Position numbers and translations under genes: made by a program
Shown here: positions 6,988 through 61,417 of the stretch, piece after piece
Layout of the letters: each line of letters starts with the position of its first letter
Position numbering within the stretch: the first letter of the stretch is position 1
The notes under the pieces: model-generated
What the model saw: the letters and a program-made list of their open reading frames with translations, nothing else
What the model was told of the DNA's origin: nothing
Database searches by the model: none
From: Alistipes sp.
GTDB lineage: Bacteria; Bacteroidota; Bacteroidia; Bacteroidales; Rikenellaceae
NCBI GenBank assembly: GCA_045659225.1
Contig: JAZOWM010000012.1
Coordinates: 1 to 61,593 of the forward strand
Reading direction: 5' to 3'
Length of the DNA: 61,593 nt

Positions 6988-7022
6988 AAAATTCAAAATG
7001 CAAAATGCAAAATGCAAAATTG
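6988..7022. repeat. Heptamer tandem array (AAAATGC)x5, degenerate
   Basis: AAAATTC AAAATGC AAAATGC AAAATGC AAAATTG. Confidence 0.9.
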
Positions 7023-7034
7023 TGCGAAAAAATA

Positions 7035-7065
7035 AGAAAAAGCGGTGAATTTCACCGCTTTTTCT
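7035..7065 (-). terminator. Intrinsic terminator after GH2 gene
   Basis: AGAAAAAGCGGTGAA/TTCACCGCTTTTTCT inverted repeat. Confidence 0.8.
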
Positions 7066-7098
7066 CTAATTATCAGCCACTAAAAAGGTAATTGTCAA

Positions 7099-8988
7099 CT
7101 ACTTCTTAGGGGTTTTGCCGAAGATTGAACGGAGACGAGCTGAGTCGTACTTTGCCTTGCGGTCGTAGTAGAATATACCATTCTCCTCCTGCTCGACATC
7201 GGTGAGCTGGGTGTAGCAGTAGCCCCAAACCTTGTCGCAAATCCAGAGCAAAGCATCGACCTGATCCTCCAAACGCTTGTAGAAATCCTCGCGGGTAACT
7301 GCCGACTTACCATAGCCCCACGATGCTGTGCGTGGCTTGCCCTTCTGATCCAACTCTACGCCTGGAGTTGTCTCGAGGCACTTAATACCACCGAACTCAT
7401 CGATAAAGTATGGACGCTTACCATCGTAGGTAGCCTGGACAAACTCTGCCTTGTTCACCACATCGCCAGTAACTGGGCAACCGCTCGAAGTCTTGTACAA
7501 CACCTGTGTGCGCGAACGGTTGTGACGGAACGCACCAGTCTCTGGGTTGTAGGTCGACTTCGCCAACTTAGCACCATCCTGCTCGTAGTTGTGCATAGCG
7601 CAGATGTCATACTCGTTGGTGATGATACCGCCACTCGCGGTATTTACTGGGCGTGTAGGGTCGGTGATGTGTGTTACATCGTAGACATCCTTCACGAAGC
7701 GTGGGTACTGAACATTGTCAGGATACCAAGTCTCGTTCATTGGGGTCCAAGTGACGATTGCTGGGTGGTTGCGGTCACGAACCACGATATTCTGCCACTC
7801 CGAGATGAAGTTACGAGCAGTCTCAGGCAACGATACATCGCTACCCCAGCTTGCATACTCACCCCAAACGAGGTAGCCGAGCTTATCAGCCCAGTAGAGG
7901 AAACGCTCCTCAAACACCTTCTGGTGCAAACGTGCACCATTGAAACCTACCTCCATCGACAACTCGATATCGCGGCGGAGAGCCTCATCGCTTGGAGCAG
8001 TCCAGATACCATCAGGGTAGAATCCCTGATCGAGAACAAGGCGCTGGTAGTATGGTTGGTTGTTGAGATATACCTTATTGCCATCGGTGTGAACCTTACG
8101 CATACCGAGGTACGACGAGATCTTATCGAGTACCTTACCCTCCTTGTCACTGATGATATACTCCACATCGTAGAGTTTTGGATTCCCGGGCGACCAAGTC
8201 TGATACTTCTTGAAAGGCACGATGATAGGCATACCCTCCACCTGTGGCATAACCTTCTTTGCTACGATCTTGCCGTTGTCCTTAATGTTGATGGTCAAGG
8301 TATTCGATGCCATAGTGCGATAGTAGCGCGGAGTAAATACTACGTGGTGCTGATCGATATCGGTAATAACCTGGATATGGTCGAGCGAATAGTCGTTTGT
8401 AGCCTCCAACCATACGGTCTGCCAAATACCTGTTGTACGTGTGTAGACGCAACCGTACGAGTAGGAGCGCAAAGACTGCTTACCTGCACCCTGGGTTCTA
8501 CGGCGGAGGTCGCTATTGGCGCGAACAACGAGGTCGTGCTCCTTGCCATCAGCCAAATACTTGGTCACATCGAGTGCAAAAGGCGAAGATCCTCCGAAGT
8601 GGCGACCTACGAACTTACCATCCACATAGACCTCAGCCTCATAGTAGACTGCGCCGAAGTGGAGCATAATCTTCTTCTCACTCCAAGCCTTAGGAGCCTG
8701 GATGGTGCGGTGGTACCAGATACCAGTGATGATATCCTTGTGCTCAACACCCGAAAGCTTACTCTCAGGGCAGAATGGCACGATAATCTTATCGCCAAAT
8801 CCCTTGCTTTCGTAGATTCTACGCTCGAAACCTGTATTTGCAAGGTCGAGCTCATAGGTCCACTCACCGTTGAGATTCACCCATTCGCTACGCTCGAACT
8901 GAGGACGAGGATACTCTGCGCGGGGTTGCGCTGCAAAGACAGTTGCTACAGCAACCAACATCATTGCGAAAGTCAAAATTCTCTTCAT
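7099..8988 (-). CDS. Glycoside hydrolase family 2 (beta-galactosidase/glucuronidase-like), secreted
   Basis: YPRPQF, LNGEW, LHFGAV, TGIWQTVWLE, LDQGFYPDG, RNHPAI..W..MNE, DEFGG and YTQLTDVEQE. Confidence 0.92.
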   Translation of the reverse strand: MKRILTFAMMLVAVATVFAAQPRAEYPRPQFERSEWVNLNGEWTYELDLANTGFERRIYESKGFGDKIIVPFCPESKLSGVEHKDIITGIWYHRTIQAPKAWSEKKIMLHFGAVYYEAEVYVDGKFVGRHFGGSSPFALDVTKYLADGKEHDLVVRANSDLRRRTQGAGKQSLRSYSYGCVYTRTTGIWQTVWLEATNDYSLDHIQVITDIDQHHVVFTPRYYRTMASNTLTINIKDNGKIVAKKVMPQVEGMPIIVPFKKYQTWSPGNPKLYDVEYIISDKEGKVLDKISSYLGMRKVHTDGNKVYLNNQPYYQRLVLDQGFYPDGIWTAPSDEALRRDIELSMEVGFNGARLHQKVFEERFLYWADKLGYLVWGEYASWGSDVSLPETARNFISEWQNIVVRDRNHPAIVTWTPMNETWYPDNVQYPRFVKDVYDVTHITDPTRPVNTASGGIITNEYDICAMHNYEQDGAKLAKSTYNPETGAFRHNRSRTQVLYKTSSGCPVTGDVVNKAEFVQATYDGKRPYFIDEFGGIKCLETTPGVELDQKGKPRTASWGYGKSAVTREDFYKRLEDQVDALLWICDKVWGYCYTQLTDVEQEENGIFYYDRKAKYDSARLRSIFGKTPKK

Positions 8989-9010
8989 AATTGTTTTGGT
9001 TTTTATTGAT

Positions 9011-9700
9011 TTATTGTTTGAAAATTCGTTCTATCTCCTCACAGGCCTCGGCAGTAGGGAGCTTACGTAGTGTTTCATCCTCGATTATTGCAAACGAGTC
9101 GCAAACGGGCAGAGCCGAGTCTAAGTCGTGGGTTGAGAAGAGTATTGTTTTACCCTCCTTGTGCGCCAAGTCGGCAAGCAGACGACACACCTCGAAGCGA
9201 GTTGGAATATCAAGGAAAGCTGTCGGCTCATCGAGCAGAATAATAGGTGTCTGCTGCGCTATGGCACGGGCAATCATTGCTCGTTGCAACTCTCCATCCG
9301 AGAGAGAGGAGGTCTCGCGCTTTGCAAAGTCACTTATTCCAACCACCGCTATCGCCTTACCAACAATTTCGCGGTCAATATCCTGAAGATGTCCTACCCA
9401 GTTGGTGTAGGGCGCACGTCCCATAGCCACCAAATCCTCCACCAACATATTCTCAACACGAATGCGCTCTGTGGTAACGATTGCTACACTCTGTGCCAAC
9501 TTCTCGGCTGCGAGCTCGGCAAGTGGAGTCCCATCTATCAGCGTATTCCCATTCGATGTCAATGCTCTGAGGAGGGTACTCTTTCCCGCGCCATTGCGAC
9601 CTACAAGGGCACAAAATTCTCCTTTGCCGAGGTGCAACGACACATCACGCAGAATTGTGCGTGAGCCATACGAAAGGGTTATGTTATCGAGCCTTATCAT
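9011..9700 (-). CDS. Iron-siderophore/cobalamin ABC transporter ATP-binding protein
   Basis: GRNGAGKST, LSDGE, LLDEPTAFLD and STHD. Confidence 0.9.
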   Translation of the reverse strand: MIRLDNITLSYGSRTILRDVSLHLGKGEFCALVGRNGAGKSTLLRALTSNGNTLIDGTPLAELAAEKLAQSVAIVTTERIRVENMLVEDLVAMGRAPYTNWVGHLQDIDREIVGKAIAVVGISDFAKRETSSLSDGELQRAMIARAIAQQTPIILLDEPTAFLDIPTRFEVCRLLADLAHKEGKTILFSTHDLDSALPVCDSFAIIEDETLRKLPTAEACEEIERIFKQ

Positions 9701-10689
9701 CGTTTGCGAGCTACAATATAGATTACAATCGGAATACCCATAAGGGCTGTTATAGTATTTATCGGCAGAGTGAAATACTTCGCCACAATATCTCCCACAA
9801 GCAACATCACCACTCCCGAGAGAATTGTTCCAGGGAGCAATATGCGGTGGTCAGCCGAGCGGAATACCATTCGTGCTATGTGCGGCACTGCGATGCCCAC
9901 AAAGCCTATTGGACCGCAGAAGGCTGTTACCGTACCCGCCAAGAGGGTAGTCGCGGTGAGCACAAGCGTGCGTGTACGAGTTATATTGAGTCCCATCGAG
10001 GCGGCATAACGCTCGCCCGCCAGGAGCATATTCATAGGTTTAATTGCCGCAACCGCCATAGCCAAGCCCGCCACCACAATCGGTACAAGCAAAGCAAGTT
10101 GGTTTGCGGTAACATCGCCCAACGAGCCCATAGTCCACACGACATACGATTTGAGCGATGCCTCGTTGCTGAAATATTGCAAAATCTCCACTACTGCACC
10201 CACGCCCGACGAGAGCATAATGCCGAGAATGAGCATCACCATAATATCCTTTATTCTACGCGAGAGTGCCACAACGAGGAGTAACACCACCGCCGATCCT
10301 ATCCACGCAGCACCCGCTGTGCCGAGTGTTTGGAACACTGGTGAGATGGTAAAACCAAAGATTGGCGCACCCAACAAAAAGAGGGCTACTCCAAGGCTTG
10401 CGCCTGCCGACACGCCGAGGACATAAGGGCCTGCCAATGGATTGCGGAAGAGAACTTGCATCTGCAAACCACTAACCGAGAGTGCCATACCTGCCAAAAG
10501 TGCAACCACAGTTCGCACAAGGCGAATGTCCAATACTATGCTTCGTATCTCCTCCGAGCCTCCACCGCAGAGTGCAGATACCACCTCCAAAAGTGATATT
10601 GCCACCGAGCCGACAGCAATATCCACCACAAAGAGTACCGCACATAGCGCAGTAAGCAGAGTGAAAAGTATGGTGTTTCGACACTTCAT
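9697..10689 (-). CDS. FecCD/BtuC-family ABC permease
   Basis: MQVLFRNPLAGPYVLGVSAGA and GPIGFVGIAVPH. Confidence 0.92.
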   Translation of the reverse strand: MKCRNTILFTLLTALCAVLFVVDIAVGSVAISLLEVVSALCGGGSEEIRSIVLDIRLVRTVVALLAGMALSVSGLQMQVLFRNPLAGPYVLGVSAGASLGVALFLLGAPIFGFTISPVFQTLGTAGAAWIGSAVVLLLVVALSRRIKDIMVMLILGIMLSSGVGAVVEILQYFSNEASLKSYVVWTMGSLGDVTANQLALLVPIVVAGLAMAVAAIKPMNMLLAGERYAASMGLNITRTRTLVLTATTLLAGTVTAFCGPIGFVGIAVPHIARMVFRSADHRILLPGTILSGVVMLLVGDIVAKYFTLPINTITALMGIPIVIYIVARKR

Positions 10690-10717
10690 ATCTCCTATCT
10701 TCTATCTCCTCTCCCCT
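10690..10717. repeat. Heptamer array (ATCTCCT)x4, degenerate, spanning the btuF-like stop codon
   Basis: ATCTCCT ATCTTCT ATCTCCT CTCCCCT. Confidence 0.7.
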
Positions 10718-11877
10718 AACTTTTTATAGTAGTAGAGTTCCTCGGTTGGGGCTTCGTGGTGCAGAATCTTCACCAAGTCCTGCAATATAAGGTCGGGACG
10801 AACAGCTCCCGACTCCCAAAAGTCGCTACCTCGGCTCTCGTTGGTTCGTTTGGTATTGTTGTAGAGGCGACCAAAGCGCACCGCATCAACCTTTGCAAAA
10901 CGAGGAGTCGCAGCACAAACCTCCTCAACTGATGCCATCTGACCGAGATTCAACCAAAAATCTGCCTTCATTGCCAATACCAACGCCTCCTCCAAAGAGA
11001 TTGGAGTTGAAGAATTTTGGCTTTTGGCCATTGGCTTTTGGCCATTAGCTTTATCTAATTTTGCATTTTGTTCTTTCGTCTCTCGTCTCTCGTCTCTCGA
11101 CTTTAATATATACTCTCCTCCTGCATCCTCAATCAGTCGCACCATATAGCTATTATGCGGCGGCATAAACCAGGTGTCGCGGTATGGCAAATTGAGCATT
11201 ACGCGCGGCTTGTACGCCGAGCAGTGCTTCTGCTCACACAAGTCGTTATATCGCTCCTCCACACCTTCGAAGAACTTTTTACCCTTCTCCTCGCAGCCAC
11301 ATAGGTATGACAACGCTACCACCCACTCCGCCTTACCAAGTGGAGACTCCTCAAGATACTCCCCTATATAAATATAAGGTATTCGGAGCTCCTCGAGTTT
11401 GTTGGTTATAACCTTTGCCTCGCCAGCTACACCATAGAGCAGTATTATATCGGGGTTAAGTGCTCGCATCTTCTCGAAGTTGAAGGAGGCATCGTAGCCA
11501 ACCTCTCCGATTTTGCCATCGGCGATAGCTCTGCGCAGCTCTGCATCGTAGATATATTGACAACCCGACAACCCAACAATGCGGTCGGCACAACCTATAG
11601 CATCGAGCATAGCCGCGTGGCTCGAAGACATTGCAATAATGCGCTTTAGCGGATTGGAAACATTGAGTAGAGTATAGAACTGCTCTCCTTCCGCTCCCTG
11701 CCATGGATTCTTCACGCAGAGCAACAACTCCCCACTCGCCTTATCACGCTCAATCGAAAATCCCTGAGCGTAGCGAGGGGTGTAGATTGGCTCGGTATCG
11801 CGCACAACCTCCTTGTTGCTGCAAGCCGAAAGCAATGCAACCACAACGAGTGTCGCTATTTGTGCCAATCGTCTCAT
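10702..11877 (-). CDS. BtuF/FepB-like ABC substrate-binding lipoprotein with repeat-derived insertion
   Basis: Lipobox LSAC, EYLEESPLGKAEW and DFWESGAVRPDLIL.DL. Low-complexity insert SRDERRETKEQNAKLDKANGQKPMAKSQN. Confidence 0.88.
   Translation of the reverse strand: MRRLAQIATLVVVALLSACSNKEVVRDTEPIYTPRYAQGFSIERDKASGELLLCVKNPWQGAEGEQFYTLLNVSNPLKRIIAMSSSHAAMLDAIGCADRIVGLSGCQYIYDAELRRAIADGKIGEVGYDASFNFEKMRALNPDIILLYGVAGEAKVITNKLEELRIPYIYIGEYLEESPLGKAEWVVALSYLCGCEEKGKKFFEGVEERYNDLCEQKHCSAYKPRVMLNLPYRDTWFMPPHNSYMVRLIEDAGGEYILKSRDERRETKEQNAKLDKANGQKPMAKSQNSSTPISLEEALVLAMKADFWLNLGQMASVEEVCAATPRFAKVDAVRFGRLYNNTKRTNESRGSDFWESGAVRPDLILQDLVKILHHEAPTEELYYYKKLGERR
11015..11101. repeat. In-frame mosaic of three heptamer families inside the CDS
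   Basis: TTTTGGC TTTTGGC CATTGGC TTTTGGC CATTAGC / AATTTTG CATTTTG / TTTCGTC TCTCGTC TCTCGTC TCTCGAC. Confidence 0.88.
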
Positions 11878-11892
11878 TTTTTTGGGATAGGT

Positions 11893-13533
11893 TTATAGAG
11901 ATAAGAGGTGTTTTGCCTGTGCAAGAGCAGCCTCGGTGACAGTGTCACCCGAGAGCATCTTTGCAATCTCCTCCACACGCTCCTCCGAAGAGAGAGGTCG
12001 GATATTGCTTCGGCTCTGCTCCTTGTAGACAAGGAAGTGGCGCGAGCCCTTCGATGCCACCTGTGGCGAGTGGGTGATGTCTATAACCTGCATCGACCCT
12101 GCCAAGCGTGCGATAATATCGCCCACATCGTTGGCTGTGCGGCCCGAAATACCTGTATCAATCTCGTCGAAGATGATTGTTGGCAAGGCAAGGTGACGTG
12201 CAAGAGTGGTCTTGAGCGCCAACATCACACGCGAAAGCTCACCTCCCGAAGCAATCTTCTCAATCGCTCGAGGCTCAACCGCAGCATTTGCCGAAAAGAG
12301 AAAATCTACCGCATCCACACCCGAGATGGTCGGTGTGCAAGGCGTTACTGCGATCCTGAACTCGGCATCTGCCATACCTACGGTGTGGAGAATCTCCACC
12401 ACCGACTTCGAGAGTGCTGGCGAAGCCTTTACTCGTGCATCGTGCAACTTTATGGCAAGTGCCGTAGCCTTACTCTCTGCCTTTGCCACTACCTCCTCCG
12501 CCTCGCGGATAAGCTCATCACTATGCTCAATGGCTGAAAGTTGCTCGGTATATTTGTCGCGCAGGGCTATCAACTCCTCGATACCCTCGCAACGATGTTT
12601 TCTTTGTAGTGTATAGATAAGGTCGAGGCGGCTATTTACCGCATCGAGTCGCTCGGGGTTAGCCTCTATACGCTCCAAGTCGTAGGATGTGGTTGCCGAA
12701 ATATCCTTCAGCTCCACCGCTGCCGAGTGGATTCGCTCGATAAGGCTTGGTGCCGCAGCATAGTTCTCCGACACTCGGCGCAACGAGTTCTCTGCCTCAC
12801 GAAGTATGGTCAATACACCCGTAACCTCCTCATCGAGCGACTGCGTTACTCGCTGCAACGCCTCGCTGATAGAGTCGGCATTTTCGAGCGTACGCAACTC
12901 CGCCTCTAACTCCTCAATCTCGCCTACACGAAGGTTTGCTCCTCGCAACTCCTCTGCCTGGTGGCGCAACCAATCCTCCTCGTCGGCATTGCGCTTGGCA
13001 CTCTCCTGCAACTTTGCAAGGGCGTGGCGCGCCTCCTGCAGAGCCGAAAATGCGTTGCCATACTCGGCAAGCAATGCTCCATTTCCTGCCTCGGTGTCGA
13101 TTGCTCGAATACGGAACTGTGGCGAAGAGAGAATAAGATTTTGATGTTGAGAGTGGATGTCGATAAGGTATGCGCCCAACTGCTTGAGGTCGGAGAGTTG
13201 CACTGGCTGGTCGTTCACAAAGGCTCTACTCTTGCCACTTGGCGAGATGGTACGGCGAATGATTGTCTCGTGGTCGTACTCGATGTCCAACTCCTTGAAA
13301 GCCTCCTCCAAGCCAAGTCGCTTGATGTCGAACTCACCCTCGACAACACAAGCGCGAGAGTTATCTTTGATTGCTGCGCTGTCGTTCTTGGCTCCGAGTA
13401 ACAGCGCCAAAGCACCCATCAAAATCGACTTTCCGGCTCCCGTCTCGCCCGTAATAATATTGAGCGATGAGTCGAACTCGATTTCGAGGTACTCAATTAG
13501 AGCGTAGTTCTCAACAACAAGCCTTCTAAGCAC
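11893..13533 (-). CDS. recN: DNA repair protein RecN
   Basis: ITGETGAGKS, IHSQHQ, coiled coil, ASGGELSR, IFDEIDTG and ITHSPQVA. Confidence 0.96.
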   Translation of the reverse strand: MLRRLVVENYALIEYLEIEFDSSLNIITGETGAGKSILMGALALLLGAKNDSAAIKDNSRACVVEGEFDIKRLGLEEAFKELDIEYDHETIIRRTISPSGKSRAFVNDQPVQLSDLKQLGAYLIDIHSQHQNLILSSPQFRIRAIDTEAGNGALLAEYGNAFSALQEARHALAKLQESAKRNADEEDWLRHQAEELRGANLRVGEIEELEAELRTLENADSISEALQRVTQSLDEEVTGVLTILREAENSLRRVSENYAAAPSLIERIHSAAVELKDISATTSYDLERIEANPERLDAVNSRLDLIYTLQRKHRCEGIEELIALRDKYTEQLSAIEHSDELIREAEEVVAKAESKATALAIKLHDARVKASPALSKSVVEILHTVGMADAEFRIAVTPCTPTISGVDAVDFLFSANAAVEPRAIEKIASGGELSRVMLALKTTLARHLALPTIIFDEIDTGISGRTANDVGDIIARLAGSMQVIDITHSPQVASKGSRHFLVYKEQSRSNIRPLSSEERVEEIAKMLSGDTVTEAALAQAKHLLSL

Positions 13534-13542
13534 AGACTTTTC

Positions 13543-14733: not shown

Positions 14734-14776
14734 CTTATTTCTTCCTTAATGAAAAACCCTTTTAGATGATGCGTTA

Positions 14777-14897
14777 GAAATTGTATAACAAGAGGGATTT
14801 CAAGGCTTGCGAAACTTTTTAATGCGGAGCATACTTGGGCGTATGTGAGCAATTAAAAAGTGAGCGTAACGCCGAAATCAACTTGTTAGACAGTTTC
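14777..14897. mobile_element. MITE-like hairpin element, copy 1 (TA-flanked)
   Basis: Terminal inverted repeat TAGAAATTGTATAACAAG / CTTGTTAGACAGTTTCTA. Core is shared with 37028-37125. The right end forms the rpoZ TAG. Confidence 0.7.
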
Positions 14898-15211: not shown

Positions 15212-15212
15212 C

Positions 15213-16088: not shown

Positions 16089-16174
16089 AATTATCTAACT
16101 CCTCTTCACGCGCATACACGCGATAAATCGCACAAAGTTATAACGAATTAACGAAAATCCCAAAATAAAATTGC

Positions 16175-16210
16175 AAAAGAGAGTAAAAGTTAGACTTTTA
16201 CCCCCTTTTT
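16175..16210 (-). terminator. Probable terminator after asd
   Basis: AAAAGAGAGTAAAAGT/ACTTTTACCCCCTTTT imperfect inverted repeat. Confidence 0.55.
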
Positions 16211-16229
16211 TCGTTAATATTTGACCTTT

Positions 16230-17240: not shown

Positions 17241-17340
17241 AATTCGTTGTTATTTAAGTTTTTTTGTTAATGTTATCTTTTCATTTCAGTTTATCGTCTT
17301 GCAAAATGGTGGAATTATGAAGTAGCAACATTTTTACATT

Positions 17341-17386
17341 CCTCCTAAATCCCCCTTTGAAAAAGGGGGACTTGTCGCTACGCTCC
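17341..17386. repeat. REP-like palindrome
   Basis: CCTCCTAAA-TCCCCCTTT-GAA-AAAGGGGGA-CTTGTCGCTACGCTCC. Confidence 0.55.
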
Positions 17387-17422
17387 ACTAATTCACGATG
17401 TGTTAAGGTTTATTATTTTTTA

Positions 17423-17450
17423 ATTTTGCATTTTTCTCTCGTCTCTTGTC
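17423..17450. repeat. Composite heptamer array (ATTTTGC + TCTCGTC families)
   Basis: ATTTTGC ATTTTTC TCTCGTC TCTTGTC, just after the PBP1A stop. Confidence 0.6.
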
Positions 17451-17467
17451 TTTTTTAAAGTTTTCCG

Positions 17468-29442: not shown

Positions 29443-29486
29443 CAAAGATAATAAAAAGACGAGAGACGAGAGACGAGAGACGAGAG
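29443..29486 (-). promoter_or_regulatory. lysC -7 box (TATCTTTG) with an adjacent (GACGAGA)x4 array
   Basis: CAAAGATA at 29443-29450; perfect heptamers at 29458-29485. Confidence 0.7.
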
Positions 29487-30811: not shown

Positions 30812-30838
30812 AAAAGCCAATGGCCAATGGCTAAAAGC
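30812..30838. repeat. Heptamer array (AATGGCC family), left flank of ybaK/proX
   Basis: AAAAGCC AATGGCC AATGGCT AAAAGC; inverted relative to 31356-31388. Confidence 0.8.
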
Positions 30839-30844
30839 CCTAAA

Positions 30845-31348
30845 CTAATACAACTCCACAAACTCCCACGAGTTGCCGACTGCTTCGAGGTAGCGCATAA
30901 ACTCCTCGTTAGAGATAACCACCGTACCTCGGCTGTCGTTGGGGTGGAAGCTCAAACTTGGAGCATTTTTTAGGTTGTGGTCGAGGAAGAGGTGAGTATG
31001 GTTCTCCTCGTCGTTGATAAGCCCGAAGGGCGATACCGAGCCCGGCTCTAAGCCGAGATATCGCTCCATACGCTGTGGCGAGGCGAAACTCAACTTACCC
31101 TGGTGCAGGCGGTGCTCCATATCGTGAATTGCCATATCTTGGTCGCAGTCGAAGCATACCAGGTAGTGGCGATTGCCCTTGTGGTTGCGGAAAAAGAGGT
31201 TTTTGCAATGCACCGAGCCATCGTTGCGCCAATACTGCTTGGCAATCTCGATAGTCGGCGACTCAGGGTGAAAATAGACCTCGTATTTAATTCCGTGCGA
31301 GTCAAGAAACTCAAAGACTTTCTTGCTGCGTAGTTCTAATGCCTCCAT
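30845..31348 (-). CDS. YbaK/ProX prolyl-tRNA editing family protein
   Basis: HCKNLFFRN, KLSFAS, LGLEPGSVSPFGL and SFHPN. Confidence 0.9.
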   Translation of the reverse strand: MEALELRSKKVFEFLDSHGIKYEVYFHPESPTIEIAKQYWRNDGSVHCKNLFFRNHKGNRHYLVCFDCDQDMAIHDMEHRLHQGKLSFASPQRMERYLGLEPGSVSPFGLINDEENHTHLFLDHNLKNAPSLSFHPNDSRGTVVISNEEFMRYLEAVGNSWEFVELY

Positions 31349-31355: not shown

Positions 31356-31388
31356 GCTTTTAGCCATTAGCTATTAGCCATTGGTTTT
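31356..31388. repeat. Heptamer array (ATTAGCC family), right flank of ybaK/proX
   Basis: GCT TTTAGCC ATTAGCT ATTAGCC ATTGGTT TT. Confidence 0.8.
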
Positions 31389-31430: not shown

Positions 31431-31466
31431 ATAGGGGCAATAGGGGTAATAGGGATTATAGGGAGC
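31431..31466 (+). repeat. Nonamer array (ATAGGGnnn)x4, G-quadruplex-pattern
   Basis: ATAGGGGCA ATAGGGGTA ATAGGGATT ATAGGGAGC. Confidence 0.8.
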
Positions 31467-31479: not shown

Positions 31480-31511
31480 AATTCTCAATTCTCAATTTTC
31501 AATTCTCAATT
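31480..31511. repeat. Heptamer array (AATTCTC)x4.5 containing the prolyl oligopeptidase stop codon
   Basis: AATTCTC AATTCTC AATTTTC AATTCTC AATT. Confidence 0.88.
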
Positions 31512-40263: not shown

Positions 40264-40306
40264 CAAAGATAATAAAAAGACGAGAGACGAGAGACTAAAG
40301 ACGAGA
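40264..40306 (-). promoter_or_regulatory. metG -7 box (TATCTTTG) with an adjacent GACGAGA array
   Basis: CAAAGATA at 40264-40271; GACGAGA GACGAGA GACTAAA GACGAGA at 40279-40306. Confidence 0.7.
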
Positions 40307-40409
40307 GAAATTTTAATTTTTCTTATGGCTTTTAGCCATATTGGGGTTGTTTTCACAAAAAAAGCGAGGTTTTAGCCTCGCTATTCATCGTCTAATAAAT
40401 ACCTATCTA

Positions 40410-43255: not shown

Positions 43256-43295
43256 TAATACCCCTAACGACACTAACGCCTCTAACGACCCTAAT
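43256..43295. repeat. Nonamer array (TAACGACCC family) after the pheS stop
   Basis: TAATACCCC TAACGACAC TAACGCCTC TAACGACCC TAAT. Confidence 0.8.
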
Positions 43296-44376: not shown

Positions 44377-44426
44377 CAAAGGTACACTTTAATTTTGAAT
44401 TCTGCATTTTGCATTCTGAATTTTTT
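44377..44426 (-). promoter_or_regulatory. pheS -7 box (TACCTTTG) with an adjacent ATTYTGM heptamer array
   Basis: CAAAGGTA at 44377-44384; ATTTTGA ATTCTGC ATTTTGC ATTCTGA ATTTTTT at 44392-44426. Confidence 0.7.
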
Positions 44427-45938: not shown

Positions 45939-45971
45939 AGTTAGGAGTTAGGAATTAGGAGTTAGGAGTTA
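45939..45971. repeat. Heptamer array (TTAGGAR)x4+, left flank of the four-helix-bundle gene
   Basis: AG TTAGGAG TTAGGAA TTAGGAG TTAGGAG TTA; the last TTA is the gene's stop. Confidence 0.92.
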
Positions 45972-46322
45972 TTGTTTTTCTTGGAGGGTTTTTGTAGATG
46001 CAACTATCATATTCATCAACTCCTGACAATCCTCATAAATACTATCAAATTCGCTTTTGTTTATATACTCACTGCCGTATAGTAGTTCTAACCAATATTC
46101 AGTTTCTGCACACTCTTTTTGTGCTATAAATAGTTTTGCCGTAAAGTCTGCTTTTGATTGAGCATACATCGCCTCTTTTGCGTTTGCTCCTATGCTTGTA
46201 CCGCAGCGCAACAACTGTCTTGAAATTATATGCTCGTTCTTCTGCTCATTTAGATATCTATACAACTTAATTACCCTCAAAGCAAAAGCCTTACTCTTTT
46301 TCTGTATTACACTGTCTCTCAT
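45969..46322 (-). CDS. Four helix bundle protein (23S rRNA intervening-sequence protein/Avd-like family)
   Basis: KS..FA..VI.LY, QLLRCGTSIGAN..EA..AQS.ADF..KL.IA.KE..ET.YWLELL; AT-rich relative to its neighbours. Confidence 0.92.
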   Translation of the reverse strand: MRDSVIQKKSKAFALRVIKLYRYLNEQKNEHIISRQLLRCGTSIGANAKEAMYAQSKADFTAKLFIAQKECAETEYWLELLYGSEYINKSEFDSIYEDCQELMNMIVASTKTLQEKQ

Positions 46323-46329: not shown

Positions 46330-46361
46330 AACTCCTAATTCCTAACTCCTAATTCCTAACT
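46330..46361. repeat. Heptamer array (AAYTCCT)x4.5, right flank, inverted relative to 45939-45971
   Basis: AACTCCT AATTCCT AACTCCT AATTCCT AACT; encodes the last codons and the stop of the ATPase. Confidence 0.92.
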
Positions 46362-49321: not shown

Positions 49322-49341
49322 TCGAAGATATAAACAAATAA

Positions 49342-49378: not shown

Positions 49379-49391
49379 GTAGCTATTGAAA

Positions 49392-49967: not shown

Positions 49968-49979
49968 TATAATCTTATA

Positions 49980-52439: not shown

Positions 52440-52452
52440 TTTTTATTCTTAT

Positions 52453-53676: not shown

Positions 53677-53739
53677 AGTGCAAAGATAATAAATTTTTAC
53701 CAAAAAAATTACTATCTTTACATTCGGAATAGTGGCAAA

Positions 53740-54558: not shown

Positions 54559-55337
54559 TTGCAGGATGGAACATATTTCCTTGCTTTGCTGCAGCGACTG
54601 CTCTTTTGGCAGTTGTGGCATCGATAGGCGCACTGTGTAATCGCCGAACTCTTGCCCTTATCACCTCAACACTCTCGGTGGTAGTGCTCTCGGGTTTTGT
54701 GGCGATGTTGTGGATCTCGCTCGAACGCCCTCCAATGCGTACTATGGGAGAAACGCGCTTGTGGTACTCATTGTTCCTGCTTATTGCAGGTGTGGCAACC
54801 TACGCAAGGTGGCGTTTTAAGTGGGTGTTGAGTTTCTCGACAATGCTTGCTACGGTCTTTATGGTGATAAATTGCCTACGCCCCGAGTTGCACGACAAGG
54901 GTTTGATGCCTGCGTTGCAGAGTGCGTGGTTTATGCCTCACGTGGCGGTCTATATGTTCTCGTATGCGTTGCTTGGAGTTGCGACACTTGTGGCGTTATA
55001 CTACCTCGTCAAGCGAGATGAGAAGGTGTTGTCTGCCATCGAAAATCTGCTCGGCGGAGGCTTAGCCCTCTTTACGGTGGGAATGCTTACAGGTGCGTTG
55101 TGGGCAAAGCAGGCGTGGGGAGAGTATTGGAGCTGGGATGCCAAGGAGGCTTGGGCTGCGGCAACTTGGTTTATCTACTTGGGTGCTATCCACCTGCGAT
55201 TGATGCGACCTCGCGCGGTTAAAACGTTTTGTACTTTGCTGATTGTGGGATTTCTCTCGTTGCAGATGTGCTGGTATGGCGTAAACTATCTCCCATCGGC
55301 ACAACAAAGTGTTCACTCATATAATCGAAATAATTAA
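54555..55337 (+). CDS. ccsA: Cytochrome c assembly protein CcsA (system II)
   Basis: RPPMRTMGET, LQS.WF.PHV and the WWD motif GALWAKQAWGEYWSWDAKE. Confidence 0.9.
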   Translation: MIAGWNIFPCFAAATALLAVVASIGALCNRRTLALITSTLSVVVLSGFVAMLWISLERPPMRTMGETRLWYSLFLLIAGVATYARWRFKWVLSFSTMLATVFMVINCLRPELHDKGLMPALQSAWFMPHVAVYMFSYALLGVATLVALYYLVKRDEKVLSAIENLLGGGLALFTVGMLTGALWAKQAWGEYWSWDAKEAWAAATWFIYLGAIHLRLMRPRAVKTFCTLLIVGFLSLQMCWYGVNYLPSAQQSVHSYNRNN

Positions 55338-55357
55338 CCATTTTAAACAAAGTTGTT

Positions 55358-56728
55358 ATGAAGAAGAAATTACTCTTTTTGGCTTTGGTACTTGCCGTTG
55401 CTGTGGTGGCAATCTTCCGCATCTCGGAGCGTGTACCTTCAGCGGAGTATCCGCTCAATAAGCGTGTTGCCGCTATCTTCGTTAAGGGAGGTTGCTTGGA
55501 TTGCCACTCGGCAAATCCAGAGTTGCCAGCCTACTTCAAACTCCCAGTTGTGGGCAAGGTTATGAAGCAGGATGTAGACGAGGGCTATCGCGCCTTCGAT
55601 ATGGAGCCAATGTGGAAAGTGCTCGAATCGGGCGAGGGTGCACTCAACCCTGTGGATATGGCAAAGGTCGAGAAGGTTGCACTCGACAAGCGTATGCCTA
55701 TGGCGAAGTATTACCTCGTACACTGGGGTAGCCGTATGACCAACGCTAAGCGCGATCTTATTCTCGAGTGGGTTGCTGCATACCGCGCTGCTCATTACAA
55801 CGATGGTGTGTGTGGTTGCGAGCCAGTTCGCCCAATCGATTTGTCCTTGCCTTACGATGAGGCGAAGGCTGCTTTGGGCTTCAAGCTCTATCACGACACT
55901 CGTCTTTCGGTGGATAATACCGTATCGTGTGCTTCGTGCCACGGCTTGAAGACCGCAGGTGTGGATAATAAGCAGTATTCCGAGGGTGTCGAGGGTAAAC
56001 TCGGTGGCGTGAATGCTCCAACCGTTTTCAATGCTGTCTACAACTTCGTACAGTTCTGGGATGGTCGCGCCGTAACACTTGCTGACCAGGCTGCAGGACC
56101 TCCAGTAAACCCAGTGGAGATGGCCTCGCCAAACTTCGATGCTATCGTTGCAAAGCTCAACAAAGACCGAGCATTCGTGCGTGAGTTTAAGAAGGTCCAT
56201 CCAGAGGGTCTTTCGCAGGCTACAATTACCGATGCTATCGAGCAGTTCGAGCGCACTCTTATCACCCCTAACTCGCGCTTCGACAAATACTTGCGTGGCG
56301 ATAAGGAGGCCATCACAGCCGAGGAGTTGCAGGGTTACGAACTCTTCAAGAAGTACAACTGCGCAACTTGCCATGTAGGCAAGAACCTCGGTGGCGAGTC
56401 GTACGAGTTGATGGGCTTGCGTAAGCACTACTTCGCAGATCGCGGCTTGGCTTTGACCGAGGAGGATAATGGTCGCTTCAAGCAGACGGGTGTGGAGCGC
56501 GATCGTCACCGCTTCAAGGTACCAGGTTTGCGAAATGTGGCACTCACTTGGCCATACTACCACGATGGCACTCGCACCTCACTCAAGGAGGCTGTATGCG
56601 ATATGGGAACCTACCAGTCGGGCGTAGCCTTGACGGACGAGGAGGAGGATTTGATTGTTGCATTCCTCAACACCCTCACTGGCGAGTACAACGGAGCGTT
56701 GCTCACCAACGAGAATGTGCAGAAATAG
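55358..56728 (+). CDS. Tri-heme cytochrome c peroxidase (YhjA/Ccp type)
   Basis: Three CXXCH motifs (CLDCH, CASCH, CATCH), QFWDGRA and FKVPGLRNVALTWPYYHDG. Confidence 0.92.
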   Translation: MKKKLLFLALVLAVAVVAIFRISERVPSAEYPLNKRVAAIFVKGGCLDCHSANPELPAYFKLPVVGKVMKQDVDEGYRAFDMEPMWKVLESGEGALNPVDMAKVEKVALDKRMPMAKYYLVHWGSRMTNAKRDLILEWVAAYRAAHYNDGVCGCEPVRPIDLSLPYDEAKAALGFKLYHDTRLSVDNTVSCASCHGLKTAGVDNKQYSEGVEGKLGGVNAPTVFNAVYNFVQFWDGRAVTLADQAAGPPVNPVEMASPNFDAIVAKLNKDRAFVREFKKVHPEGLSQATITDAIEQFERTLITPNSRFDKYLRGDKEAITAEELQGYELFKKYNCATCHVGKNLGGESYELMGLRKHYFADRGLALTEEDNGRFKQTGVERDRHRFKVPGLRNVALTWPYYHDGTRTSLKEAVCDMGTYQSGVALTDEEEDLIVAFLNTLTGEYNGALLTNENVQK

Positions 56729-56765
56729 TTGAATGTTAGTCATTTGCTAACAAAAAAACACACAA

Positions 56766-56797
56766 AAAGATGGGTATCGAAAATGATACCCGTCTTT
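56766..56797. terminator. Bidirectional terminator
   Basis: AAAGATGGGTATC/GATACCCGTCTTT inverted repeat. Confidence 0.75.
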
Positions 56798-56820
56798 CGT
56801 TTTGCGTTTATTGCTCTGTT

Positions 56821-57195
56821 CTACAACTCTGTTTTCCACAATCCGTGGAGGTTGCAATACTCGTAGACTGCGATAGGCTTCGAGTCACAAGTGCAGAATA
56901 CCGCCTCAGGTTTATCGGTCAAATCGATGCGGTGACCACCATTCTCGGTCTCTACGTAGATAAAGCAGATGTGGTGCTCAGGCAACATTGGATGAGCCAC
57001 GCTACCCACCTCAACCTTGATGTGGTTATCATCAATCTTTGTAACAACGGGAACGTGCTTCTCGTTGCTTGCATCAACGGTATTTGGTACCAACTCCTGC
57101 ATAGGTACACCACAACATACAACAGGAACTTTAGAGTCTACCACCTTCTGAATAACATTGCCGCAATGAGGGCAAACATAAAATTTAACAGCCAT
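56821..57195 (-). CDS. Desulfoferrodoxin / superoxide reductase
   Basis: CPHCGN..CCG..M, EKHVP, HPM..EHHI and YCNLHGLW. Confidence 0.95.
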   Translation of the reverse strand: MAVKFYVCPHCGNVIQKVVDSKVPVVCCGVPMQELVPNTVDASNEKHVPVVTKIDDNHIKVEVGSVAHPMLPEHHICFIYVETENGGHRIDLTDKPEAVFCTCDSKPIAVYEYCNLHGLWKTEL

Positions 57196-57230
57196 AATAT
57201 TCTGAATTTTAAGGTTTTTAACAATATAAT

Positions 57231-58361
57231 TTATTTTATTTTTCTCTTATCAATCAAGCAAAAATCTATTCTCTCGTACGGCGAGGCGTTACCGCACTCG
57301 AAGAGTACGCCAACTTGCTTTCGTGGCATAATCACTATGTCCGAGTAGGCAGATAATCCACTCTCCAAAACTGTGCCAGAACTCCACGTCTTACCTCCAT
57401 CGCGGCTTTGTCTTAGGGTTAATTGCTCCCTGGCGCGCGTTGAGGCTGGGTTGCTGAACAACAGATGGTTTGTTGCACGACCCTTCTCCGAGTAGCCAAT
57501 TATCGAGCCTTGGCACACCGGTTCAATCAGTTGTGCATCGCGCACCACCTCGCTCGATGTAAGTGCACCGTCGCAACTTACTGCGTAGTGACGAGCATAT
57601 CGGTCTGCTCCTCGTTGCCACCTCGAGTTGTGCATTATGTCGCCATTTGCCAACTCCGCAACAGTAGACTCGTTGCCACCCTTCAAAGTTGCACCTATAT
57701 GCCAATTCTCGCCACAATCGTCGGAGTAGATGAGGTGAGCATTGTAGTAGGTGCGACCGCCCTCGTAGAGCGAATGAACACACGGTACAACTACCCTGCC
57801 GCGATGCGACTTGTGTTGCAACTGAATGGCGTGACAAGGTCCTGTGGCATACCACGCCCACTCGTTGCGCTTGGTCGAGGATGTAATCTCGCGCGGAGTG
57901 CTCCACTTGCGACCATCATCGTCGGAATGGCAGATAAAAACTCGTCGTGTATCGTGCGACTTACGCCTCATAATTGCACGCTCCTTGTCGTCACCGCGAT
58001 TCCAACTCATAAGCAACAATATGCGACCACTCTCTCTGTCTACAACTGGCGATGGATTGCCGCAAGTGTTCTCCGCATCGTCCCATACGACGATAATATC
58101 GCCCCACGATGCTCCCCCATCCTCCGAACGACGCACAACCAAGTCGATGTTTCCCGCATCGCCTATGCCGTCGCGCCTTGCCTCAGCAAATGCCAACAAC
58201 GTATTGTTTGCGGTGCGCACGATAGCCGGAATGCGGAATGCCGAGTAGCCACTCATACCACTGCTATAGACCGTTGTGCGGAGCGATGTTGTCTCCGACG
58301 AACGACCAAACGCAATGCTGGTGAGGAGTGATAATGCGATTATGGAGAGCAACCTCTTCAT
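57231..58361 (-). CDS. Sialidase (GH33), secreted
   Basis: FRIP motif; Asp boxes SEDGGASW, SDDDGRKW, SDDCGENW and SRDGGKTW; SAYSD. Confidence 0.9.
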   Translation of the reverse strand: MKRLLSIIALSLLTSIAFGRSSETTSLRTTVYSSGMSGYSAFRIPAIVRTANNTLLAFAEARRDGIGDAGNIDLVVRRSEDGGASWGDIIVVWDDAENTCGNPSPVVDRESGRILLLMSWNRGDDKERAIMRRKSHDTRRVFICHSDDDGRKWSTPREITSSTKRNEWAWYATGPCHAIQLQHKSHRGRVVVPCVHSLYEGGRTYYNAHLIYSDDCGENWHIGATLKGGNESTVAELANGDIMHNSRWQRGADRYARHYAVSCDGALTSSEVVRDAQLIEPVCQGSIIGYSEKGRATNHLLFSNPASTRAREQLTLRQSRDGGKTWSSGTVLESGLSAYSDIVIMPRKQVGVLFECGNASPYERIDFCLIDKRKIK

Positions 58362-58373
58362 ATTATCAAATCA

Positions 58374-58754
58374 TTAGAACGCCCACAACCAAGGAATTAC
58401 CGAAACGACCAAGAGCAGAAGCAACACCAAATAGAGCGATGTACGCAGACTTCTGCTGGCGATGTGCTTCTTGAAGTAGGCGTCAATCATCTGCCAATGG
58501 AGTGCGATATGCACCACCAGCAACACCATCACTATGACGCCCGCCCAGAGGTGGATGTGCGCCCAAGTGCGGCGTGTCCACACCTCGAAGAAAGATGTTG
58601 CCGCCTCGCGTACCCACTCCGACTCGGCGGTACGGCGCAGAGGTGCGATGATTCGAATTACTATACCGCTGATGCTCGTTACTACCATCGCGACAAACAT
58701 CACGAGGTCGATAATAATGTTTGTTGTCAATCTGTTTTTCATAGTTGTTTGCAT
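58374..58754 (-). CDS. DUF4405-type membrane protein (cytochrome b-like)
   Basis: ID..MF....SG and W..IH.W.G......LVVHIALHW; three TM helices. Confidence 0.75.
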   Translation of the reverse strand: MQTTMKNRLTTNIIIDLVMFVAMVVTSISGIVIRIIAPLRRTAESEWVREAATSFFEVWTRRTWAHIHLWAGVIVMVLLVVHIALHWQMIDAYFKKHIASRSLRTSLYLVLLLLLVVSVIPWLWAF

Positions 58755-58902
58755 TTCTGTTACTACAAAGGTAAACCTTTATTTCGGATAAAGCAAATCA
58801 TAAATTTTGATGTTTCTATAAGCAAAAACTATCTTCTCGTTGATTATATTATCTTTTATTTCCCCATTTTTTCTATATTTGCAACAAATTAGCGAGGAAA
58901 AG

Positions 58903-59568
58903 ATGAAGAATAAAATCAAAAAACTTATCTATATTCCAACCTTCGGCGAGGAGGTGGCAAACTCGGTTTCGCACGGCGTGATGTCCGTTCTGATGTTGTT
59001 GGCACTACCCTTCTCGGCAGTTTGGGCATACCTACACAACCCCTCGCACTCGGCACTTGCAAGCGCAGGAGTATCGGTTTTTGTGATTAGCATCTTTTTG
59101 ATGTTTCTCTGCTCGACTTTGTATCACTCGATGCAGCCCGAGTCGAAGCATAAGGCTGTGTTCCATATCCTCGACCATATAATGATTTACTTCGCCATTG
59201 CTGGCTCCTACACACCCGTTGCACTCTGCGTTATCGGCGGTTGGCAAGGTGTACTAATTGTCGTTATTCAGTGGGTGATGGTTCTTTTCGGAATATTTTA
59301 TAAGTCGCTGTCGAAGCGTTCGATTCCGTCAATCAGCCTTACTATTTATCTGATTATGGGCTGGATGATAGTCATCTTCTTCCCTCTCTTTTGGAAGCAA
59401 GCCTCTACCCCACTTCTTGCGCTGATTGGCGGTGGCGGCATCTTCTACACCTTGGGCGCTCTCTTCTACGCCAAGAAGGGTTTCCGCTATCACCACCTCG
59501 TGTGGCATCTGCTTATCAACTTGGCGGTGATTTGCCACTTTGTGGGAATTGTTTTCTTTTTGAATTAA
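58903..59568 (+). CDS. Hemolysin III / PAQR family membrane protein
   Basis: EEVANSVSHG, STLYH, LDH..IY..IAGSYTP and HH..WH. Start placed at ATG 58903. Confidence 0.92.
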   Translation: MKNKIKKLIYIPTFGEEVANSVSHGVMSVLMLLALPFSAVWAYLHNPSHSALASAGVSVFVISIFLMFLCSTLYHSMQPESKHKAVFHILDHIMIYFAIAGSYTPVALCVIGGWQGVLIVVIQWVMVLFGIFYKSLSKRSIPSISLTIYLIMGWMIVIFFPLFWKQASTPLLALIGGGGIFYTLGALFYAKKGFRYHHLVWHLLINLAVICHFVGIVFFLN

Positions 59569-59598
59569 AAAAGTTATTTTATACAAAATTCTATAACT

Positions 59599-61395
59599 AT
59601 GAAGTTTTTTAAGGTATTCTTGGCGAGCCTGCTTGCGCTCGTTGTCGGTACAGTAGTATCGTTTGTTTTGTGTATCGCTGTTTTTGTCGGTATGGCGAGC
59701 TCTATGGGGCAAACCTCTCAGGCTATTATCACTCCGCAGACTATCGTAAAGATTGATCTTGCCGAAAATATCACCGAGGCTCCGACCAAAAACCCAATGG
59801 CGGGCTTCGACTATACCACGATGACTATGCCGAAAAACACCCACCTATTGAAGGTGTTGCAGAGCATCGAGGCGGCAAAGTTGGATGCGACAGTTAAGGG
59901 TATCTACCTCAACTTTACGGGAGTAGGGAGTGTAACAACTGGTGCATTGGAGGAGATTCGTGCCGCATTGGTCGATTTCAAGCAGAGTGGCAATTTCGTG
60001 GTGGCATACAACGAGGGATATTCGCAGGGTACAATGTACCTCGCTTCGGTAGCAGATAAAATCTACCTCCACCCAGAGGGAGCTTTCTCGTGGGTAGGTA
60101 TGGCACAGACCTCTCTCTTCTTTAAGGGCGCGCTCGATAAGCTCGGTCTGAATGCCGAGGCCATCCGCCCAACCGTTTGCAAGTACAAGAGCGCCGTTGA
60201 GCCATATATCCGCAAGGAGATGTCGAAGGAGAACAAGGCTCAGATGCAGACCTTGGTCGATGATATGTGGGGCGTGTTGGTTGGCTCGATTGCCGAGAGC
60301 CGCAACCTCGACGCAAAGAAGTTGATGCAGTTGGCGGACAAGTTGGAGATTACACAGCCAGAAGATGCCTTGAAGCACGGCTTGGTCGATGCTCTTATCT
60401 ACGAGGACGAGATGGAGCAGAAATTTGCCGAGTATGGGGTAGAGAAGGGCACAGATGGCGAGTACAACATCATCTCGTTGGGCGACTATATGACATTGGC
60501 TCCTGTTTTGCCTAAGTTTGGTGCGCCGGCAGTGGGTATCATCTATGCCGAAGGTCAGATTTTTGATGGTGCAGGAGAGGATGATAATGTATATAGCGCA
60601 AACCTCGTGGAGGTTGTGAAGAAGGCTCGCAAGGATAAGGATATCAAGGCGGTTGTATTCCGTGTGAATTCACCGGGCGGTAGCGCATTGGCAAGCGATG
60701 TTATCTGGCGCGAGTTGGAGTTGCTCCGCAAAGAGAAGCCGGTAATCGTTTCGATGGGCTCGTACGCTGCGAGTGGTGGTTACTATATCTCTGCGGGCGC
60801 TGATGCGATTATTGCCGATAAGATGACCTTAACAGGCTCGATTGGTGTGTTTGGCTTGTTGCTTGAGGGCGAGAATATGCTCAACAAGCGACTCGGCGTC
60901 ACCACCGATGTTGTGAAGACTGGCCAGTCGGCGGACTTTGGCTCGAACATTATGGGCGTGGGTATTCGCAAGATTACCGACTTGGAGCGCAAGACCTTGC
61001 TTCGCTCGGTGGATAAGGTCTACGAAACATTCACTACAAAGGTGTCGAATGGTCGCAACTTGCCTATGGCAAAGGTTTTGGATATTGCGCAGGGTAGAGT
61101 ATGGTCGGGCACTCGTGCCGTAGAACTCGGCTTGGCAGATGCAAATGGCGGCTTGCGTGAGGCTATCGCTGTGGCTGTGGATAAGGCGGGTATTGCCGAG
61201 AACTTCCGTGTTACCGAGGTGTTGGAGGAGCTTTCTCCAATGGCGCAGATGATGCAGCAGTTGAATATGCAGGTTAAGTCATTCCTCCTCGATGCCGAAA
61301 CTTTGGAGGCTGTCGAGTACTACAACTCGTTGAAGCGTGAGGTTGCACGAGAGGGCGTGCAGGCGTATTGCCCGTATGCTTTCAGCATAAATTGA
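59599..61395 (+). CDS. sppA: Signal peptide peptidase SppA (67K type)
   Basis: KYKSAVEP, RVNSPGGS, SMG..AASGGY, TGSIGV and GRVWSG. Confidence 0.95.
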   Translation: MKFFKVFLASLLALVVGTVVSFVLCIAVFVGMASSMGQTSQAIITPQTIVKIDLAENITEAPTKNPMAGFDYTTMTMPKNTHLLKVLQSIEAAKLDATVKGIYLNFTGVGSVTTGALEEIRAALVDFKQSGNFVVAYNEGYSQGTMYLASVADKIYLHPEGAFSWVGMAQTSLFFKGALDKLGLNAEAIRPTVCKYKSAVEPYIRKEMSKENKAQMQTLVDDMWGVLVGSIAESRNLDAKKLMQLADKLEITQPEDALKHGLVDALIYEDEMEQKFAEYGVEKGTDGEYNIISLGDYMTLAPVLPKFGAPAVGIIYAEGQIFDGAGEDDNVYSANLVEVVKKARKDKDIKAVVFRVNSPGGSALASDVIWRELELLRKEKPVIVSMGSYAASGGYYISAGADAIIADKMTLTGSIGVFGLLLEGENMLNKRLGVTTDVVKTGQSADFGSNIMGVGIRKITDLERKTLLRSVDKVYETFTTKVSNGRNLPMAKVLDIAQGRVWSGTRAVELGLADANGGLREAIAVAVDKAGIAENFRVTEVLEELSPMAQMMQQLNMQVKSFLLDAETLEAVEYYNSLKREVAREGVQAYCPYAFSIN

Positions 61396-61417
61396 GAATT
61401 GAGAATTGAAAATTAAG
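61390..61417. repeat. Heptamer array (AATTGAG)x4 containing the sppA stop codon
   Basis: AATTGAG AATTGAG AATTGAA AATTAAG. Confidence 0.85.

What the first reader, a model, noticed from the sequence alone, without database searches (positions are those of the whole stretch)
6988..61417. Window-wide system of 7/9-bp tandem arrays, possibly footprints of a four-helix-bundle cassette
Seen: at least six heptamer families (AAAATGC, GACGAGA, AATGGCC/TTTAGCC, AATTGAG, TTAGGAG, AGGAGAT) and a nonamer family (TAGGG core). Arrays are nearly always 3-5 units, about 30 bp. They occur at gene ends, in promoters, as inverted pairs around two genes, and as mixed-family mosaics (11015, 17423, 40279-40340). 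Constant unit length and copy number with unrelated sequences is hard to explain by simple slippage. The only candidate trans-acting gene here is the Avd-like four-helix-bundle gene, which itself lies between inverted arrays. Inference: a minimal mobile or RNA-processing system whose cassettes insert and are lost, leaving repeat scars. I cannot confirm from here that the association is undescribed.
Basis: inference. Interest (0 to 1): 0.8.

Follow-up and report, generated by a model that had tools for sequence, protein, structure and literature searches.

The report
Cassette arms spread without the gene
This bacterium carries some 300 short runs of 7- or 9-base repeats, and nearly all the 7-base runs use the same words and orientation as the ends of small four-helix-bundle gene cassettes in its relatives; they are likely laid down one end at a time without the gene, which would give a testable origin for the unexplained 7-base repeats of bacteria.

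Summary
The arrays are real: 194 period-7 and 32 period-9 arrays genome-wide, none in a shuffle. The window's TIGR02436 gene sits between inverted arms.

The link to four-helix-bundle (FHB) genes holds. 259 of 264 heptamer arrays use words of cassette arms in the genus (controls 52-99). Each FHB clade has its own word. Short FHBs go with 7-mers (64 of 65), long TIGR04258 ones more with 9-mers. Array load tracks FHB presence (22 of 32 versus 9 of 48 genomes), though 8 array-rich genomes lack one.

The 'scar' reading mostly fails. Neighbouring arrays face inward like cassette ends (45 of 54) but match in family only at chance (7 versus 7.1; cassettes 39 of 44). Arms fill a btuF loop in frame in 14 of 15 expanded alleles, with no cassette. 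Cassette sites of relatives are only weakly enriched for arrays here (p about 0.06).

Best reading (0.5): arms are added singly at gene edges, FHB-guided, enzyme unknown. I found no paper on the genome-wide link. This scan reported the system many times on other DNA.

The parts
45969..46322 (-). Short four-helix-bundle gene, 117 aa, between an ABC ATPase and its permease
   Evidence: TIGR02436 106.6 bits, cut-off 24; PF05635 95 bits; PDB 2RLD E 8e-32, 5 chains
46330..46361 (-). 5' arm of the cassette, about 4.5 heptamers; holds the stop codon of the ATPase gene
   Evidence: pairs with the 3' arm in the RNA fold, z -3.9
45939..45971 (+). 3' arm of the cassette, 4.7 heptamers, inverted; begins at the FHB stop codon
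6988..7020 (+). Orphan heptamer arm just upstream of the promoter box of tRNA-Glu (6867-6939); word of the cassette arms in G073/G172
10684..10717 (-). Orphan arm at the btuF stop and btuC start; word of the G253 cassette arm
11015..11099 (-). In-frame insert in a btuF loop: inward-facing pair of two different families with a partial third between
   Evidence: loop is 18 nt in 13 of 29 readable relatives
17409..17451 (-). Degenerate two-family mosaic after the stop of the PBP1A gene
29457..29486 (+). Perfect orphan arm upstream of the aspartokinase promoter box; word of the G196 cassette
30816..30839 (-). Orphan arm after the ProX stop
31356..31382 (+). Orphan arm before the ProX start, pointing away from the gene
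31431..31464 (+). Nonamer array; no exact match to the long-cassette flanks sampled
31480..31511 (-). Orphan arm at the stop of the prolyl-oligopeptidase gene; inward-facing partner of 31356, different family
40278..40340 (+). Mosaic upstream of the metG promoter box
43264..43294 (-). Nonamer arm at the pheS stop; matches 5' flanks of long cassettes in G173 and G005; the same junction holds a long FHB gene in G204
44391..44424 (-). Orphan arm upstream of the pheS promoter box; other families or none in relatives
61390..61414 (+). Orphan arm at the sppA stop

Best explanation
The heptamer arrays use the words and polarity of the arms of four-helix-bundle cassettes in this genus, each protein clade with its own word, and they are likely laid down one arm at a time at gene edges, mostly without the gene, by a process in which the FHB protein is predicted to bind its own arm and an unidentified enzyme pastes it in. 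Shown: word sharing, protein-clade coding, 7-mers with short and 9-mers with long proteins, polarity, chance-level family matching, fast turnover at fixed sites, in-frame entry into a coding loop, and a cassette shared between distant alleles with a 30-nt co-converted flank. Inferred: that FHB activity causes new arms; that each side of a break or recombination junction is capped independently, which would give inward-facing mismatched pairs, single arms and stacked arms; that a full cassette is the case where the gene lies between two matching caps; that the constant 4-5 units reflect one pentameric ring bound per arm. The catalyst is likely a host repair or recombination enzyme, since no element-linked one was found.
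For: 259 of 264 heptamer arrays share three or more 10-mers with cassette arms; reversed arrays 99, column-permuted mean 52. Arm word follows the FHB tree, also across different insertion sites. 64 of 65 short-FHB loci have 7-mers and 1 a 9-mer; 18 of 55 long-FHB loci have 9-mers and 6 have 7-mers. Near gene ends in long spacers 111 of 117 arrays point away from the gene; upstream of promoter boxes 40 of 48 are 3'-arm type. Neighbours: 45 of 54 inward, 2 outward; family match 7 versus 7.1 expected, cassettes 39 of 44. Replicate in 842 kb of relatives: 19 inward, 0 outward, 22 same-direction, match 2 versus 2.2. btuF loop: 15 expanded alleles, 14 in frame, at least five families, no FHB in 30 loci; three states within a clade with branches of 0.01-0.03. 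Load versus FHB 22 of 32 against 9 of 48; 16 of 26 against 9 of 47 without the close clade; a genome's own arm word tends to be its abundant word. Arms and orphans both have a median of 4.4 units.
Against: No new arm was seen arising; nothing here shows binding or catalysis. Eight array-rich genomes (81-94% complete) have no TIGR02436 hit and no array-flanked PF05635 hit. This assembly holds one short FHB for about eight abundant words, so most cognate genes are absent or unassembled. No RVT_1 or Y1 transposase in the assembly; RT in 2 of 5, Y1 in 0 of 5 relatives; GxxExxY in 0 of 36. With the arm library limited to distant congeners only 150 of 264 arrays match. At two mismatches pairs match 20 versus 15.5 (50 of 500 draws reach it). 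Kin are not independent, pattern counts include the cassettes' own arms, only four word groups were counted, and genes came from a crude ORF caller. One nonamer array (31431) matched no long-cassette flank.
Confidence: 0.5

Rival explanations
1. Patchwork by horizontal exchange. Arms arise only as matched cassette ends or matched gene-less doublets; short-tract recombination between species, anchored in the conserved gene next to a spacer, then swaps one arm at a time and spreads arms far beyond the cassette.
For: This genome and G253 share the cassette at the same junction and 29 of the last 30 ATPase bases (21-23 in five empty relatives), while G253 is more distant further upstream. This genome and G220 share the btuF mosaic tail though their proteins are not sisters. 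It explains arms pointing away from conserved genes and arrays in genomes without FHB.
Against: It moves arms but does not create the first in-frame arm in a coding loop. Matched pairs should stay in excess, and are at chance. It does not by itself explain why a genome's abundant word is its own cassette's word.
Confidence: 0.22
2. Scars: whole cassettes insert at a junction, the gene is later deleted and one or both arms remain.
For: At contig C128 a fused remnant of both arms remains where G068, G043 and G173 have the cassette with that word; at C87 a related 3' arm remains; pheS 3' holds a long FHB gene in G204. Matched gene-less doublets of the window's word appear in metagenome contigs, probably from other loci (table 5c).
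Against: 4 of 11 mapped junctions carry an array against 140 of 887 in the background (two more by eye); one-sided 7 of 30 and 7 of 27 against 12-13%, p 0.07 and 0.06, each including this genome's own cassette. At most such sites the orphan word differs from the cassette's. Pairs are mismatched. A cassette in the btuF loop would break the gene.
Confidence: 0.18
3. Regulatory sites. FHB is a repeat-binding regulator, and arrays are kept by selection at promoters, starts and stops.
For: 48 of 264 heptamer arrays end just upstream of a promoter box against 9.9% of random intergenic 30-mers. MacGregor 2015 proposed a binding role for such repeats (PMC4679880).
Against: Words and presence change freely at one promoter among species with 95-99% identical PheS. 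Most words lack a cognate protein in this assembly. It gives no origin for the arrays.
Confidence: 0.07
4. Ordinary replication slippage with a preference for 7-base units.
For: A few arrays reach 7-11 units, so slippage acts on existing arrays.
Against: Few words, fixed polarity, fixed copy number and coding by protein clade.
Confidence: 0.03

Closest known systems
ORF-bearing 23S rRNA intervening sequence (Coxiella S23p; PMC4990558, passages read)
   Same: Same protein family (PF05635); ORF enclosed by a terminal stem; tandem heptamers noted upstream of the ORF.
   Different: Here the cassette lies between protein genes, not in rRNA, and hundreds of gene-less arms exist. RNase III excision was not tested.
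RAYT / REPIN (PMC3337134, abstract and section 5 read)
   Same: One small gene per repeat family, flanked by its repeats, with many gene-less copies in spacers; several gene-repeat pairs per genome.
   Different: No HUH/Y1 transposase; arms are tandem heptamers, not palindromes; the two arms of gene-less pairs usually differ in family; cassettes move between sites and alleles.
Dispersed heptamer repeats of Xanthomonas, Nostoc and Beggiatoaceae (PMC4692102 passages; PMC4679880 abstract, passages and supplement search)
   Same: Short intergenic heptamer sets, oriented to genes, some convergent, some inside ORFs; origin unexplained.
   Different: Neither paper's main text contains 'helix bundle'; each treats one word, here about eight words map to protein clades.
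DGR accessory protein Avd (PMC10053308, passages)
   Same: PF05635 is reported as homologous to Avd; a family member is titled as five four-helix bundles (reference title only).
   Different: No reverse transcriptase beside the gene or found in the assembly.

Membership tests
TIGR02436 / PF05635 four-helix-bundle protein | Score above the curated cut-offs | tested here: met
   106.6 versus 24 bits; 95 versus 33.8 bits
TIGR04258 long four-helix-bundle protein (contig C27 gene) | C-terminal suffix domain | tested here: met
   65 versus 40 bits; nonamer arrays on both sides
23S rRNA intervening sequence | Located inside a 23S rRNA gene | tested here: not met
   Lies between ABC ATPase and permease genes
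23S rRNA intervening sequence | Terminal stem enclosing the ORF | tested here: met
   Predicted fold, z -3.9, 0 of 100 shuffles
23S rRNA intervening sequence | Excision from RNA by RNase III | not testable with these tools
   Only contigs of mixed communities were available
RAYT / REPIN | HUH/Y1 tyrosine transposase | tested here: not met
   PF01797 in 0 of 6 genomes, 82-96% complete
RAYT / REPIN | Each gene tied to one repeat family that flanks it | tested here: met
RAYT / REPIN | Gene-less unit is two complementary copies of one repeat | tested here: not met
   7 of 45 and 2 of 19 inward pairs matched, as by chance
Diversity-generating retroelement | Reverse transcriptase linked to the Avd-like gene | tested here: not met
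   No PF00078 hit in the assembly, which is 82% complete
MITE / insertion sequence | Target-site duplication and a partner transposase | tested here: inconclusive
   No duplication evident by eye; edges are A/T-rich without a sharp motif; no general transposase search was run

The most novel reading that the evidence does not exclude
FHB cassettes are a transposase-free repeat-writing system. A pentameric Avd-like ring loads one 4-5-unit arm of its own transcript and has it copied onto a DNA end, much as telomerase caps a break, so that each side of a junction is capped by whichever FHB lineage is passing through the population. This would be the general source of bacterial heptamer repeats and a small, sequence-coded tool for tagging DNA ends.
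Probability: 0.25. Interest if true: 0.9.

Novelty: new variant of a known kind. Interest (0 to 1): 0.68.

Why it matters
Heptamer repeats have been noted as over-represented and unexplained in bacteria (PMC4692102, PMC4679880), and PF05635 is a family without a function. This genus gives a table of protein clade against repeat word, so a binding test with cognate and non-cognate pairs can be set up directly. The mismatched inward pairs and in-frame arms narrow the mechanism: any model must place single arms with fixed polarity and without the gene. The system also remodels promoters, stop codons and protein loops between close species.

Tried and rejected
Purine content as polarity gave 43 of 75 neighbour pairs 'inward' and an apparent excess of related pairs at two mismatches (21 of 43 versus 11.2). 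I replaced it because it mislabels one large family and its null pool held nonamers; with cassette-defined polarity the excess shrinks to 20 versus 15.5. ProX as second cargo: rejected; five ordinary genes have such brackets by the purine rule. Partner enzymes: RVT_1, Y1_Tnp and GxxExxY as above; DUF559 in 6 of 36 genomes, flanked by its own palindromic repeats, absent here. Weak PF05635 hits in G033 and G049 have no arrays. Sequencing runs held at most 0.30 of the words and only mixed contigs; joints skipping the gene had sides of 30 bases or fewer, so they show neither excision nor expression. A target motif at arm edges was not resolved. The 20-kb relative stretches showed little synteny. 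A more sensitive family-by-family scan of junctions was not run, so degenerate remnants are undercounted. No structure or complex prediction was run. PMC5524665 only lists the protein in tables.

Full report
Observation. Tandem Repeats Finder and direct reading confirm the arrays. The window is contig C12 of an 82% complete assembly; from gene content I take it for an Alistipes-like Bacteroidales genome (my judgement, no call names it). A periodicity scan without motifs finds 194 period-7 and 32 period-9 arrays in the genome, 22 at all other periods from 4 to 16, and 0 at periods 7 and 9 after shuffling. At a looser threshold there are 264 and 48. The median is 4.4 units.

The cassette. The gene at 45969-46322 is TIGR02436/PF05635, close to PDB 2RLD, an entry with five chains. 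Its arms pair in a predicted stem (z -3.9); the 5' arm holds the upstream gene's stop and the 3' arm starts at its own stop. Among 30 orthologous ATPase-permease junctions, the best 30 of 183 hits, only this genome and G253 hold the cassette. About ten close relatives hold arrays of other words (read by eye), and the ten most distant have 24-59-nt gaps without arrays. G253 shares 29 of the last 30 ATPase bases with this genome but is more distant further upstream, which suggests transfer with a short co-converted flank. The genome has four further, long FHB genes; the one tested is TIGR04258 and has nonamer arrays on both sides.

Protein and word go together. I collected 120 FHB hits from 49 congeneric genomes (eight duplicate loci dropped, one split gene counted twice). 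64 of 65 short ones have heptamers nearby and 1 a nonamer; 18 of 55 long ones have detected nonamers and 6 heptamers. On a tree of 64 short proteins the arm word follows the clade, also where one clade occupies different junctions, and every heptamer family of the window has a cognate clade in relatives; the alignment has only 121 columns and deep forks are weak. 259 of 264 heptamer arrays share words with these arms; controls give 99 and 52, and a library without the close clade 150. Only 11 of 48 nonamer arrays match long-cassette flanks (reversed 0), so that link is thinner.

Load. Over 80 congeners and four word groups, 22 of 32 array-rich genomes have a short FHB against 9 of 48 others; without the close clade 16 of 26 against 9 of 47. 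Genomes tend to be rich in their own cassette's word: 4 of 6, 5 of 6, 5 of 5 and 3 of 4, against 5 of 23, 5 of 23, 2 of 24 and 2 of 25 for other cassette carriers. Kin are not independent and own arms are included. Against the link, eight array-rich genomes have no FHB hit with either model, apart from two weak array-free hits.

Scar test. Mapping relatives' cassette sites onto this genome gave 11 adjacent junctions, 4 with an array, against 140 of 887 co-directional junctions; two more show remnants by eye. One-sided mapping gave 7 of 30 and 7 of 27 against 12-13% (p 0.07, 0.06), each including this genome's own cassette. C128 looks like a true scar. In the window the pheS stop carries a nonamer arm and G204 a long FHB gene there, though with a different word (1 of 31 loci); ProX orthologues have none (0 of 26). 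Scars exist but look like a minority.

Geometry. With polarity taken from cassette arms, 111 of 117 arrays near a gene end in long spacers point away from the gene. Short spacers are uninformative (23 versus 19), and arrays far from a stop go the other way (12 versus 18). 40 of 48 arrays just upstream of a promoter box (consensus recalled) are 3'-arm type. Of 54 neighbour pairs 45 face inward and 2 outward, yet only 7 match in family against 7.1 expected, whereas 39 of 44 cassettes have matched arms. In 842 kb of relatives: 19 inward, 0 outward, 22 same-direction, 3 unassigned; 2 matched against 2.2. Matched hairpins could be lost or unassembled preferentially, but that does not create mismatched pairs.

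The btuF loop. Of 30 readable alleles, 13 have an 18-nt loop, 2 a 27-nt loop without arrays, and 15 a loop of 30-231 nt. The detector finds arrays in 13 of the 15; 14 are in frame, at least five families occur, and no locus holds an FHB gene. Six near-identical proteins show three states. A whole cassette here would break the gene, so arms likely arrive alone.

Mechanism. I commit to arm-by-arm addition guided by the FHB protein (0.5). Independent capping of two ends would give inward mismatched pairs, single arms and stacked arms; one pentamer per arm would give 4-5 units. Both are inference. The pentamer rests on five chains in 2RLD and a reference title seen. No catalyst was found: no RVT_1 or Y1 transposase here, RT in 2 of 5 and Y1 in 0 of 5 relatives, GxxExxY in 0 of 36, DUF559 in 6 of 36 with other repeats. 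Short-tract horizontal exchange (0.22) surely contributes and may be enough; scars 0.18.

Literature. Seven searches listed no paper tying dispersed heptamer or nonamer arrays to this family; most subscription papers are outside the library. The nearest statement is the tandem heptamers upstream of the Coxiella IVS ORF (PMC4990558, passages). PMC4692102 (passages) and PMC4679880 (abstract, passages, one supplement searched) describe oriented heptamer sets without a source; Mrazek 2007 I saw only as cited there. RAYT/REPIN (PMC3337134, abstract and section 5) is the organisational analogue, but membership fails. The scan's own notes describe this system in many other genomes (195 findings on one query) and none in this genome; they are not independent support. 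I did not see chance-level mismatch of inward pairs or the in-frame allele series in the few lines shown.

Verdict. A real, FHB-linked repeat system; mostly not scars; new variant of a known kind; interest 0.68.

Noticed in passing
G000 contig C107:5223-5328; also L226 (G220 btuF loop) and L061 (G196): A non-tandem element of about 85 nt with at least nine full or partial copies in this genome; several copies are followed directly by arms, of five different families, so its end looks like a favoured landing site.
   Followed up: partly
window 17336-17395: A palindromic element with six further partial copies in the genome; by eye it resembles repeats beside DUF559 genes of relatives, but only a 13-nt match was found.
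   Followed up: partly
G000 C72:5676-5720, C24:3572-3602, C118:8863-8949: Heptamer arrays translated in frame inside other long genes (a helicase-like and a topoisomerase-like protein, names judged by eye).
   Followed up: no
G000 C106 and C74 starts, C7 and C75 starts: Two long FHB genes are split across contig ends with identical 5' parts, which suggests a recent duplication and that assembly breaks at these cassettes.
   Followed up: no
L222 (G179): The btuF allele has a 50-nt array loop that shifts the frame: a broken gene or an assembly error.
   Followed up: no
L294 (G033), L295 (G049): Distant Avd-like genes without arrays, beside repeated coding segments and, in G049, an RT-like gene: likely diversity-generating retroelements.
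   Followed up: no
L302-L307: DUF559 genes in 6 of 36 congeners sit among their own palindromic repeats: a parallel small-gene and repeat system.
   Followed up: partly
window 30845-31348: The ProX/YbaK gene follows the prolyl-oligopeptidase gene in the close clade but a different gene in distant congeners.
   Followed up: no
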